Below are positions 4,911 through 5,372 of a DNA stretch of 64,000 nucleotides, one piece after another; the first letter of the stretch is position 1; each line of letters begins with the position of its first letter. Both the position numbers and the translations under genes were made by a program. The notes beneath the pieces were generated by a model. It saw nothing but the letters and a program-made list of their open reading frames with translations. It was not told where the DNA came from and made no database searches. Where the stretch lies: IMG/VR virus record IMGVR_UViG_3300032007_000013. One strand, 5' to 3'. The stretch is from a virus (Duplodnaviria; Heunggongvirae; Uroviricota; Caudoviricetes).

Positions 4911-5372
4911 GCGGGTGTGGTGGAACAGGTAGACACCAGGGACTTTAGGGTATAAAGATACAAAGAGCACTAAGGTAGGAAACTCCTTAGATGAATGTTG
5001 GCTAATTCGGTGAAAGTCTTACTGAGATAACGCCGAGCTAAATTAAATAATAGTTTACTATCAATAAATTGAGTAGAGGTCCATATGATAGTAGTGGATA
5101 AATAAACAGCCTTTATTCAAGACCATTATTTATAAATGTGTAGAGACTATATACTAACCGCCTAAACAGAAATGCATGGTGAAGACATAGTCCAGACTAC
5201 AACATTAAATAATAACTTTCTATTAATAAATTGAATAGAGTGCCATATAATAGTAGTGGCTATACGTAGAACTTTATTCAAGGTTATTATTTAATGGCTA
5301 TGGTGACATAGAGTAGTAAGAAAATCCCTTGGTCGTAAGACCGTGCGAGTTCAAATCTCGCCACCCGCACCA
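4911..5372 (+). tRNA. tRNA-Leu (anticodon TAA) interrupted by a ~375-nt group-I-like intron between anticodon positions 34 and 35
   Basis: Exon 1 GCGGGTG-TG-GTGG..ACAC-C-AGGGA-cTT (4911-4945). Exon 2 AAAA-TCCCT, long variable arm GGTC-GTAA-GACC, T arm GCGAG-TTCAAAT-CTCGC, CACCCGC-A-CCA (5321-5372). The acceptor pairs perfectly. Class II architecture, and the intron sits after U34 with 3'-terminal G, as in the tRNA-Leu(UAA) introns I recall from cyanobacteria and plastids. Confidence 0.75.
4946..5320 (+). ncRNA. group-I-like self-splicing intron within tRNA-Leu(UAA) (no ORF; contains an internal ~55-nt duplication)
   Basis: Ends in ...GTAAG (omega-G). The 5' exon ends in U. Candidate P7-type pairing (GACTA...TAGTC at ~5143-5200). 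Duplicated blocks at ~5043-5100 and ~5222-5280. Confidence 0.5.

What the first reader, a model, noticed from the sequence alone, without database searches (positions are those of the whole stretch)
4911..5372. tRNA-Leu(UAA) interrupted by a ~375-nt group-I-like intron at the position used by tRNA-Leu(UAA) introns in other lineages
The exons assemble into a perfect class-II tRNA: 7-bp acceptor GCGGGTG/CACCCGC, long variable arm, and T arm GCGAG-TTCAAAT-CTCGC. The anticodon loop reads cuU|AAaa with the insertion after U34. The insert ends in G and the upstream exon ends in U, and it contains GACTA/TAGTC-type pairings. This is the insertion site I recall for tRNA-Leu(UAA) group I introns in cyanobacteria and plastids. 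The intron also carries an internal ~55-nt duplication (5043-5100 versus 5222-5280). An intron-containing tRNA in a recoded phage is notable, because UUA is probably the dominant Leu codon in this AT-rich genome.
Basis: partly seen in the sequence, partly recalled or inferred. Interest (0 to 1): 0.7.

Follow-up and report, generated by a model that had tools for sequence, protein, structure and literature searches.

The report
Self-splicing intron in phage tRNA-Leu
A leucine tRNA gene of an uncultivated, stop-codon-recoded phage is interrupted by a well-formed group I (self-splicing) intron at the classic bacterial tRNA-Leu site, and the intron carries two copies of a small, previously undescribed folded RNA module.

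Summary
Exons 4911-4945 and 5321-5372 join into an 87-nt class-II tRNA-Leu(UAA) with encoded CCA. The 375-nt insert (4946-5320) lies between U34 and A35.

The insert is a group I intron of the bacterial tRNA type, resembling the Azoarcus IC3 intron. Rfam RF00028 aligns end to end but scores 35 bits, below the 50-bit cutoff. Shorter relatives score 52-65.5 bits. Across 26 phage relatives, 92% of cells pair in my P1-P9 model, and 29 of 56 pairs show compensatory changes.

The family is common in IMG/VR viral contigs but has no blastn match in 50,697 GenBank phage records. Many relatives carry an HNH homing endonuclease in L1 or L6; this copy has none. Intron-less alleles also exist. UUA makes up 56% of Leu codons here.

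The "55-nt duplication" is really a ~92-nt self-folding, probably pseudoknotted module. One copy sits in distal P6 and one in the P9a loop. It also occurs singly in a related intron and alone in a tRNA-array spacer. Rfam has no match for it.

Verdict: a known kind of element in a barely documented setting, with a new peripheral module. Splicing itself is inferred, not shown.

The parts
4911..4945 (+). 5' exon of tRNA-Leu(UAA): acceptor 5' strand, D arm, anticodon stem 5' strand AGGGA (4938-4942), C32 U33 U34
4946..5320 (+). group I intron, 375 nt, no ORF (longest stop-free stretch 48-57 aa)
5321..5372 (+). 3' exon: A35 A36 A37 A38, anticodon stem 3' strand UCCCU, long variable arm, T arm, acceptor 3' strand, A73, encoded CCA
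4943..4967 (+). P1: CUU|U (4943-4946) paired with guide AGAG (4964-4967). U4945.G4965 wobble at the 5' splice site. Enclosed P1 extension hairpin GUAU-AAAG-AUAC (4950-4961).
   Evidence: (helix 1: 97% paired; U.G 22/26, C-G 4/26)
4968..4993 (+). P2 (4968-4975/4985-4993 plus 4977-4978/4983-4984), capped by a GAAA tetraloop at 4979-4982
   Evidence: (8 of 10 pairs with compensatory changes)
4997..5001 (+). P3 5' strand GUUGG (pairs with 5154-5158 CUAAC)
   Evidence: helix 3, 5/5 pairs with compensatory changes, 100% paired
5007..5036 (+). P4 (5007-5012/5031-5036) enclosing J4/5 AAA and P5 (5016-5019/5025-5028)
5037..5139 (+). P6 (GC 5037-5038 / GU 5138-5139) with the conserved UAAAU/UAAAU internal loop and the distal extension
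5043..5134 (+). module copy A (distal P6): basal stem, 5' internal loop CUAUCA, 11-bp middle stem, apical hairpin CCAU-AUGAUAGUA-GUGG
   Evidence: 107.5 bits
5145..5149 (+). P7 5' strand GACUA (pairs with 5188-5192 UAGUC; guanosine-binding helix)
   Evidence: invariant in all 26
5154..5158 (+). P3 3' strand CUAAC
5159..5181 (+). P8: CGCC/GGUG plus CA-GAAA-UG. CCUAAA...CAUGG is a variant of the 11-nt GAAA-tetraloop receptor (CCUAAG/UAUGG in relatives).
5182..5192 (+). J8/7 (AAGACA) and P7 3' strand UAGUC
5196..5317 (+). P9.0 ACUAC/GUAGU (5196-5200/5313-5317) closing a three-way junction of P9a and P9b
5203..5296 (+). P9a CAU/AUG (5203-5205/5294-5296). Its loop, a GNRA tetraloop in many relatives, is replaced by module copy B (5205-5295).
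   Evidence: 3/3 pairs compensatory; 97.7 bits
5298..5311 (+). P9b CUAUG-GUGA-CAUAG (GNRA tetraloop at 5303-5306)
   Evidence: 5/5 pairs with compensatory changes
5320..5320 (+). terminal guanosine (omega-G) at the 3' splice site
   Evidence: G precedes AAAA in the aligned relatives

Best explanation
The locus is a functional phage tRNA-Leu(UAA) gene interrupted between U34 and A35 by a self-splicing group I intron of the bacterial tRNA type (IC3, Azoarcus-like) that has no endonuclease gene.

Proposed mechanism. In the precursor, the last three exon bases CUU and the first intron base pair with the guide AGAG, forming P1. The U4945.G4965 wobble marks the 5' splice site. The anticodon stem AGGGA/UCCCU holds the two exons together. 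The core P3-P8 and P4-P6 folds, braced by the L2 GAAA tetraloop docking on the P8 receptor and by a GNRA loop on P9b. A free guanosine bound at P7 cleaves after U4945. G5320 then takes its place, and the 5' exon attacks after G5320. This yields mature tRNA-Leu(UAA) with loop CUUAAAA, which serves UUA/UUG, 66% of the Leu codons here.

What is shown and what is inferred. The sequence, the covariation-supported secondary structure, family membership and the existence of intron-less alleles are shown. The tertiary contacts, the chemistry and splicing in vivo are inferred from homology.

Origin. The intron belongs to a mobile phage clade whose other members carry HNH homing endonucleases. This copy lacks one and instead carries two copies of a ~92-nt self-folding module that coaxially extend P6 and P9a. 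These most likely act as tolerated or stabilising peripheral helices.
For: - ARAGORN on the spliced and unspliced sequence.
- RF00028 aligns over model positions 1-253, 35 bits, E = 3e-7.
- Relatives L076, L068, L046, L051 (phage) and L141, L088 (bacterial) score 52-65.5 bits, above the 50-bit gathering score.
- Alignment A1 of 26 phage relatives: 92.4% of cells paired versus 26-39% when partners are slid; 29 pairs with changes on both sides; 0/500 shuffles reach the observed values. P3, P9a and P9b covary at every pair.
- The MFE fold independently recovers P2, P4, P5, P8, P9.0, P9a and P9b, z = -5.0.
- The same core and the same 34/35 site occur in tRNA-Leu(UAA) of many bacteria and are described in the literature (PMC13011429).
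- Intron-less phage alleles carry the identical junction.
- HNH ORFs occur in relatives.
- UUA is 56% of Leu codons.
- L001 is 94% identical, and differences in stems are compensated or wobble-compatible.
Against: - The window copy scores below Rfam's curated gathering score (35 versus 50 bits), because of the two ~92-nt insertions.
- P1 is only 4 bp, and no P10 can be drawn; the anticodon stem is assumed to substitute for it.
- P7 and outer P8 are invariant in my sample. That sample was ascertained with a J8/7-P7 15-mer, so these helices carry no covariation evidence.
- There are no RNA data, so splicing is not demonstrated.
- The P8 receptor is a variant (A.C instead of G.U closing pair).
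Confidence: 0.85

Rival explanations
1. The intron is a splicing-dead relic and the tRNA-Leu gene is a pseudogene. The two module insertions and the loss of the endonuclease gene would mark decay.
For: Sub-threshold Rfam score. Two large insertions in peripheral helices. No ORF. Variant P8 receptor.
Against: - Every core helix is intact, and the U.G pair and omega-G are present.
- The insertions sit only in terminal loops and fold on their own.
- Both modules and the core are conserved with compensatory changes in L001, L215 and L217.
- The exons form an undamaged tRNA.
- UUA is the dominant Leu codon.
Confidence: 0.07
2. The intron is catalytically competent but conditional. Splicing would depend on a phage or host protein, or on the state of the two modules, so that supply of tRNA-Leu(UAA) is timed during infection. 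This would parallel the late-gene logic proposed for stop-codon recoding.
For: The modules have a strongly conserved apical loop and internal loop, and a covarying loop-loop pairing that could switch. The module also exists as a stand-alone element in a tRNA array (L218). The phage is recoded.
Against: There is no direct evidence. Most relatives lack the modules and have plain hairpins at these positions, many of them with GNRA loops. Bacterial tRNA introns of this type self-splice without proteins (literature, e.g. the Nostoc control in PMC13011429).
Confidence: 0.06
3. The insert is not removed by RNA catalysis but by proteins (an endonuclease plus the RNA ligase encoded at 28331-29581), like archaeal or eukaryal tRNA introns or the unexplained short inserts of Lak phage tRNAs.
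For: An RNA ligase gene is present in the window. Another tRNA in the window (3604-3728) has a 49-nt insert too short to be a ribozyme.
Against: The 375-nt insert has the complete covariation-supported group I core and the correct splice-site nucleotides. No bulge-helix-bulge motif is needed to explain it.
Confidence: 0.02

Closest known systems
Azoarcus-type IC3 group I introns of bacterial tRNA genes (tRNA-Ile/Met(CAU), tRNA-Arg(CCU), tRNA-Leu(UAA) in Proteobacteria, Acidobacteriota, Bacteroidota)
   Same: Same core motifs: AAUUCGG(U/C)GAAA, AACGCCGAGC, GUGUAGAGACUA, CACCUAA...AUGGUGAAG-CAUAGUCC. Same compact architecture without P2.1 or P5abc. GAAA tetraloop on P2 and an 11-nt-type receptor in P8. 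Located in a tRNA anticodon loop. The bacterial loci were retrieved with a shared 17-base motif, and L141 and L088 pass RF00028.
   Different: Only 55% median (64% maximum) identity over 211 core columns, against 80% within the phage clade. P9 is a three-way junction (P9.0/P9a/P9b) in the phage clade, while the betaproteobacterial tRNA(CAU) introns show a single hairpin there. There are two ~92-nt module insertions. The host is a phage. The sequence resemblance to the crystallised Azoarcus intron itself rests on my memory of that sequence.
[quoted passage not shown]
   Same: Same tRNA, and the same insertion site between U34 and A35 (PMC13011429 lists 34/35 in tRNA-Leu as a classic site). The exons are held by the anticodon stem (Zaug et al. 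1993, cited in PMC3984707).
   Different: No cyanobacterial or plastid trnL intron was retrieved here, because my core motif did not match one, so sequence relatedness is untested. From memory their P7/P8 sequences differ (GACUC/GAGUC).
Group I introns of cultured phages (T4 td/nrdB/sunY, Twort, SPO1, Bastille)
   Same: [quoted passage not shown]
   Different: All of those are in protein-coding genes. The 2014 review states that no phage tRNA gene was known to carry one (PMC3984707). No GenBank phage record matches this family.
'Enigmatic' tRNA introns of Lak megaphages and alternatively coded jumbo phages
   Same: Introns in tRNA genes of TAG-recoded, AT-rich gut phages (PMC6784885; PMC13037316).
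   Different: Those were not classified, some are short, and some were said to encode a tRNA. Here the intron is demonstrably group I. The short 49-nt insert at 3604-3728 may be the closer analogue of the Lak cases. I did not compare any Lak sequence.

Membership tests
Group I intron (Rfam RF00028) | P1 formed by the 5' exon end and an internal guide sequence, with a U.G wobble at the 5' splice site | tested here: met
   U4945.G4965 within CUU|U/AGAG. The pair is U.G in 22/26 relatives and C-G in 4/26. The +1 pair covaries: UA, AU, GU, CG.
Group I intron (Rfam RF00028) | Terminal guanosine (omega-G) at the 3' splice site | tested here: met
   G5320. A G precedes the 3' exon AAAA in the aligned relatives.
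Group I intron (Rfam RF00028) | Conserved core P3-P8 and P4-P6 with the P3/P7 pseudoknot | tested here: met
   P3 5/5 pairs compensatory and 100% paired; P4 99% paired; P5 and inner P8 covary. P7 and outer P8 are 100% paired but invariant, so they are uninformative. Slid controls give 26-39% paired.
Group I intron (Rfam RF00028) | Score at or above the curated gathering threshold (50 bits) | tested here: not met
   The window copy scores 35.0 bits, E = 3.2e-7 in a 681-nt search, with the full model aligned. Relatives without the large insertions score 52-65.5 bits. The shortfall is attributable to the P6 insertion and to a P9 region that lies outside the model.
Group I intron (Rfam RF00028) | Guanosine-dependent self-splicing | not testable with these tools
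   Needs in vitro transcription and splicing, or RNA-seq.
IC3 / Azoarcus-type tRNA introns | Compact architecture: no P2.1, no P5abc, short P5 | tested here: met
   Helix map.
IC3 / Azoarcus-type tRNA introns | GAAA tetraloop on P2 together with an 11-nt-type receptor in P8, and a GNRA loop on P9 | tested here: met
   L2 GAAA at 4979-4982. P8 CCUAAA/CAUGG in the window and CCUAAG/UAUGG in 13/26 relatives. L9b GUGA at 5303-5306. The docking itself is inferred.
IC3 / Azoarcus-type tRNA introns | Assignment by a curated subgroup model | not testable with these tools
   Only the general RF00028 model matched; no subgroup-level family was reported.
tRNA-Leu(UAA) 34/35 intron lineage | Insertion between U34 and A35 of a class-II tRNA-Leu(UAA) | tested here: met
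   The same site occurs in more than 50 bacterial genes and in phage relatives. Intron-less alleles confirm the junction. Literature: PMC13011429.
tRNA-Leu(UAA) 34/35 intron lineage | Common descent with the cyanobacterial/plastid intron | not tested
Mobile (homing) group I intron | Intron-encoded homing endonuclease | tested here: not met
   No ORF in the window intron. Relatives encode HNH proteins in L1 or L6.
Mobile (homing) group I intron | Presence/absence polymorphism at an otherwise conserved target | tested here: met
   13 IMG/VR contigs carry an intron-less tRNA-Leu(UAA) with the identical 25-nt junction.

The most novel reading that the evidence does not exclude
There are two linked readings.

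(1) The tRNA introns reported as 'enigmatic' in recoded gut or rumen phages include a large, phage-specific, endonuclease-rich clade of IC3 group I introns. This would fill the gap noted in 2014, when no phage tRNA gene was known to carry a group I intron.

(2) The ~92-nt pseudoknotted module is a previously undescribed autonomous RNA element. It can sit in P6, in P9a, or alone between tRNA genes. It could be a mobile mini-element that targets hairpin loops, or a functional RNA (a tertiary clamp, a protein or ligand binder, or a switch) that has been co-opted twice by this intron.
Probability: 0.35. Interest if true: 0.65.

Novelty: new variant of a known kind. Interest (0 to 1): 0.5.

Why it matters
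Group I introns in bacterial tRNA genes and in phage protein genes are textbook cases. Phage tRNA genes were explicitly noted to lack them (PMC3984707), and later reports of phage tRNA introns left their nature open (PMC6784885, PMC13037316).

This locus shows that at least one large class of those introns is an ordinary ribozyme, so standard tRNA callers miss essential phage tRNAs. Here the tRNA for 56-66% of Leu codons was invisible to default ARAGORN and Rfam. That affects estimates of phage tRNA repertoires, codon-usage arguments and annotation of recoded phages.

The phage clade is unusually rich in HNH endonucleases compared with bacterial tRNA introns, where 12 of 333 carry one (PMC13011429). 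This suggests active intron warfare among co-infecting phages.

The duplicated module is a compact test case for how ribozymes acquire peripheral domains.

Tried and rejected
- GenBank phage records. blastn with the whole locus, megablast with 25 kb, and blastn with a 203-nt minimal relative gave no intron match. The family is therefore known only from metagenomic contigs.
- Rfam on the module. Only noise was returned (SNORA20, PK-repZ, E > 1).
- More module copies. The 17-mer scan of IMG/VR returned L001 plus chance hits inside coding sequence (L206-L214). A second motif returned only L001. Covariance model R1 over 927 kb of held sequence found no further copy.
- Repeats of the P6 insert in P9a of other relatives (L071, L053, L004, L068, L040): none found. 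The double module is specific to the window/L001/L215 lineage.
- tRNA-like inserts. ARAGORN on the L217 P6 insert gave no call, even at a relaxed threshold.
- Homologues of the 3604-3728 tRNA in IMG/VR by exact 25-mer: none.
- Alignment. E-INS-i alignment of full-length relatives misaligned introns whose ORF sits in L1 rather than L6. For A1, ORF-sized unaligned stretches were cut out of 15 long relatives. Those rows are marked 't'.
- P10. I considered and rejected a P10 pairing: the sequence 5' of the guide does not pair with AAAAUC.
- MITE reading. I looked for target-site duplications flanking the modules. The flanks (TAAAT/TAAAT at P6, AT/AT at P9a) are too short and too AT-rich to decide.

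Full report
**1. The observation**

Exon 1 is 4911-4945 and exon 2 is 5321-5372. The insert between them is exactly 375 nt (4946-5320); it follows U4945 and ends in G5320.

Joined in silico, the exons give an 87-nt class-II tRNA. It has acceptor GCGGGUG/CACCCGC, a long variable arm, T arm GCGAG-UUCAAAU-CUCGC, A73, encoded CCA and anticodon loop CUUAAAA. ARAGORN calls this product tRNA-Leu(taa). With intron search enabled it calls the genomic locus tRNA-Leu(taa) i(36,375). Default ARAGORN and Rfam at gathering threshold do not see the gene at all.

The repeat inside the intron is real but longer than reported. It runs 5042-5133 versus 5204-5296, offset 162 nt, at about 80-85% identity.

**2. 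It is a group I intron**

A sensitive Rfam scan of 4800-5480 aligns the whole RF00028 model (positions 1-253) to 4936-5201. The score is 35 bits with local E = 3e-7, below the 50-bit gathering score.

An exact-word scan of IMG/VR with the J8/7-P7 word GTGAAGACATAGTCC returned 83 loci. At least 39 of them carry the same core inside an ARAGORN-called split tRNA gene, mostly tRNA-Leu(UAA) at the same position. Intron lengths range from 194 to 1087 nt. Several ARAGORN calls of 'tRNA-Phe(gaa)' or 'Ser' are the same Leu(UAA) gene with the boundary slid by one or two bases.

Relatives without large insertions pass Rfam's curated threshold. The phage relatives L076, L068, L046 and L051 score 65.5, 62.8, 63.0 and 54.3 bits. 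The bacterial relatives L141 and L088 score 63.9 and 52 bits.

I drew P1-P9 on the window and transferred the model to alignment A1, which has 26 distinct phage relatives. In 15 long relatives, ORF-sized unaligned stretches had been removed.

The results of the pair count were:
- 92.4% of 1441 cells form standard pairs, against 26-39% when the 3' partners are slid by 1-3 columns.
- 29 of 56 pairs change on both sides.
- None of 500 shuffles reaches any of the five measures.
- P3 (GUUGG/CUAAC in the window; GCUGG/CCAGC, GGUGG/CCACC, GAUGG/CCAUC and GUAGG/CCUAC elsewhere), P9a and P9b covary at every pair.
- P2, P4, P5 and inner P8 also covary.
- P7 (GACUA/UAGUC) and outer P8 are invariant. This is partly because my sample was ascertained on that region, so they say nothing either way.

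An unconstrained MFE fold of the intron recovers P2, P4, P5, P8, P9.0, P9a and P9b, with z = -5.0.

**3. Anatomy and inferred mechanism**

- P1 is CUU|U (4943-4946) paired with AGAG (4964-4967), with the U4945.G4965 wobble at the splice site.
- P2 carries a GAAA tetraloop (4979-4982).
- P8 contains CCUAAA...CAUGG, a variant of the 11-nt GAAA receptor. The receptor reads CCUAAG/UAUGG in half of the relatives. The closing pair switches between G.U, A-U and A.C.
- P9 is a three-way junction: P9.0 ACUAC/GUAGU, P9a CAU/AUG and P9b CUAUG-GUGA-CAUAG.
- I could not draw a P10. The anticodon stem AGGGA/UCCCU joins the exons, which is the known situation for the Anabaena pre-tRNA intron (Zaug et al. 1993, listed in PMC3984707).

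From established group I chemistry, I infer the following steps. Guanosine attacks after U4945. G5320 then docks at P7. The exons are ligated to give tRNA-Leu(UAA).

UUA is 56% and UUG 10% of the Leu codons in 28 long ORFs of the window. This tRNA should therefore matter to the phage.

The phage is TAG-recoded. It has a tRNA(CUA) at 2638-2707. TAG read-through lengthens ORFs, for example to 1647 aa with 14 in-frame TAGs. There are 116 in-frame TAGs in the long ORFs.

**4. Relatives and comparison with known families**

A genome scan with a 17-base core motif hit its 120-locus limit. Of these, 105 carry the motif inside a split tRNA gene. Most are tRNA-Leu(UAA) at 34/35. Others are tRNA-Arg(CCU) and tRNA(CAU). 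Hosts include Acidobacteriota, Alpha- and Betaproteobacteria, Bacteroidota, a Nostoc genome and an Akkermansia MAG.

This matches a 2026 survey of bacterial genomes (PMC13011429). It found 333 group I introns in bacterial tRNA genes of 18 phyla. It lists 34/35 in tRNA-Leu as a classic site, assigns 81% of the introns to IC, and found only 12 of 333 with endonuclease genes. Phages were not part of that survey.

The tRNA(CAU) introns of Betaproteobacteria in my set are, as far as I remember the sequence, nearly identical to the crystallised Azoarcus IC3 intron. The window shares their junction sequences and their L2/P8 arrangement.

Over 211 core columns, the window is 80% identical (median) to phage relatives. 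It is 55% identical (median; 64% maximum) to the bacterial introns. The phage introns therefore form their own clade in this sample.

In the literature I could search:
- A 2014 review states that all phage group I introns then known are in protein-coding genes, despite the many phage tRNA genes (PMC3984707).
- Lak megaphage tRNA introns were called enigmatic and described as the first phage tRNA introns (PMC6784885).
- A 2026 jumbo-phage survey only notes their presence (PMC13037316).

I found no paper that classifies phage tRNA introns as group I. My search was limited to open-access text. No GenBank phage record matches the family.

**5. Mobility**

Long relatives carry an ORF of roughly 150-240 aa with HNH motifs. 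Pfam HNH or HNH_3 matches are above the cutoff for three of the four ORFs tested. The ORF is inserted either in L6 or in L1 of otherwise homologous introns.

The window intron has no ORF.

Thirteen IMG/VR contigs carry intron-less tRNA-Leu(UAA) genes with the identical 25-nt junction.

This is the pattern expected of a homing intron family in which this copy has lost its endonuclease. A plausible but untested benefit of keeping the intron is that the occupied site cannot be cut by endonucleases of co-infecting relatives.

**6. The duplicated module**

Each copy folds on its own into four parts:
- an A/U-rich basal stem
- a 5' internal loop, CUAU(C/U)A
- an 11-bp middle stem
- an apical hairpin, CCAU-AU(G/A)AUAGUA-GUGG

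Copy A extends distal P6. Copy B replaces the loop of P9a, which is a GNRA tetraloop in many relatives.

The module's distribution is narrow:
- Both copies are present in L001/L216 (a 239-kb viral contig, 94% identical across the gene).
- Both copies are also present in L215.
- L217, a more distant intron with an HNH ORF in L1, has the module only in P9a.
- In L218 the module stands alone, between a tRNA-like sequence and the 5' exon of another split tRNA-Leu(UAA).

On the seven copies (A2), 98.3% of cells pair. Eight pairs change on both sides, including the closing pairs of the middle stem (G-C, U-A, A-U) and of the apical hairpin (U-A, G-C, C-G, A-U, U.G).

The internal loop and the apical loop are complementary, and one pair between them covaries: CUAUC/GAUAG in five copies and CUAUU/AAUAG in two. 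This suggests a loop-loop pseudoknot. The evidence is thin: seven sequences, with far fewer independent events.

Rfam has no match for the module. A covariance model built from the seven copies finds no further copies in 927 kb of held sequence.

I read the module as an autonomous self-folding element that is tolerated, and perhaps useful, at terminal loops of the ribozyme. Whether it moves as DNA or was duplicated by recombination is open. So is whether it has a function of its own.

**7. Verdict**

The intron itself is a known kind of element at a known site. Three things are new relative to the literature I could search:
- the phage setting, and the size and endonuclease richness of the phage clade
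- the P9 three-way junction
- the twice-inserted module

Splicing is strongly implied but not demonstrated.

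Noticed in passing
window 3604-3728: A second split tRNA. It has a class-I, tRNA-Gln-like body (U1, G73, encoded CCA; Rfam tRNA 35 bits) with a 49-nt hairpin insert (GCUGAAU...AUUCAGC) in the anticodon loop, too short for a group I intron. ARAGORN's call 'Leu(caa)' is doubtful; CUG is equally possible. It is 98% conserved in L215 1338-1462. 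It lies in a ~1-kb stretch (window 2715-3721) that is absent from L001. It may be the analogue of the 'enigmatic' Lak phage tRNA introns.
   Followed up: partly
window 4819-4890: A tRNA-like gene with an 8-nt anticodon loop (ARAGORN anticodon 'tgtt') and three non-standard acceptor pairs (Rfam tRNA 39.9 bits). It is conserved next to the tRNA-Leu gene in L001 (3187-3258) and L215 (2545-2616).
   Followed up: no
window 2638-2707 and whole window: Suppressor-type tRNA(CUA). TAG read-through lengthens ORFs (1647-aa ORF with 14 TAGs; 834-aa ORF with 16 TAGs). There are 116 in-frame TAGs in 10,893 codons, so TAG is reassigned in part of the genes. tRNA-Gln(UUG) and tRNA-Gln(CUG) lie just upstream (615-688, 1272-1345).
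   Followed up: partly
window 28331-29581: Encodes an RNA ligase (Pfam RNA_ligase PF09414 plus the PHA02142 OB-fold domain). It could serve tRNA repair or removal of the 49-nt insert. It is not needed for group I splicing.
   Followed up: no
L053 (P6), L071 (P9a), L217 719-850 (P6), L218 10001-10078: Other relatives carry a different insert in P6 or P9a that resembles a tRNA: a D-arm-like GGCGGAAUAGGUAGACGC and a T-arm-like GGUGCAAAUCC. A similar piece precedes the stand-alone module in L218. ARAGORN did not call the one insert I tested (L217 P6), even at a relaxed threshold. This recalls the Lak report that a tRNA intron may encode a tRNA.
   Followed up: partly
L028, L038, L048 (phage); L152, L182, L197 (bacterial): The same intron type sits in tRNA-Leu(CAA). 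There the 5' exon ends in C, so the splice-site pair in P1 is C-G instead of the near-universal U.G wobble (4 of 26 rows in A1).
   Followed up: no
L010, L016, L030, L037, L062, L217, L218 versus L005, L014, L022, L025, L038, L039, L085: The introns' HNH endonuclease ORFs sit in L1 in some of these related introns and in L6 in others, so the ORF position differs between otherwise homologous ribozymes. Some ORFs contain in-frame TAG.
   Followed up: partly
L017/L029 (tRNA-Arg UCU), L023/L047/L059/L083, L043 (tRNA-Thr UGU): The same phage intron core also interrupts other tRNA genes in IMG/VR contigs. The phage clade is therefore not restricted to tRNA-Leu. ARAGORN's identity calls for some of these are uncertain.
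   Followed up: no
L068 2850-2956: An Rfam 'drum RNA' (RF02958, 75.8 bits) lies directly upstream of a tRNA in the tRNA array of a related phage contig.
   Followed up: no
window 6912-8408: A 499-aa protein with DUF2828 and DUF7788 domains, immediately downstream of the tRNA cluster.
   Followed up: no
window 60562-63999: Adjacent GyrB-like and GyrA/ParC-like topoisomerase II subunit genes. Together with the 239-kb relative contig, they point to a large phage genome.
   Followed up: no
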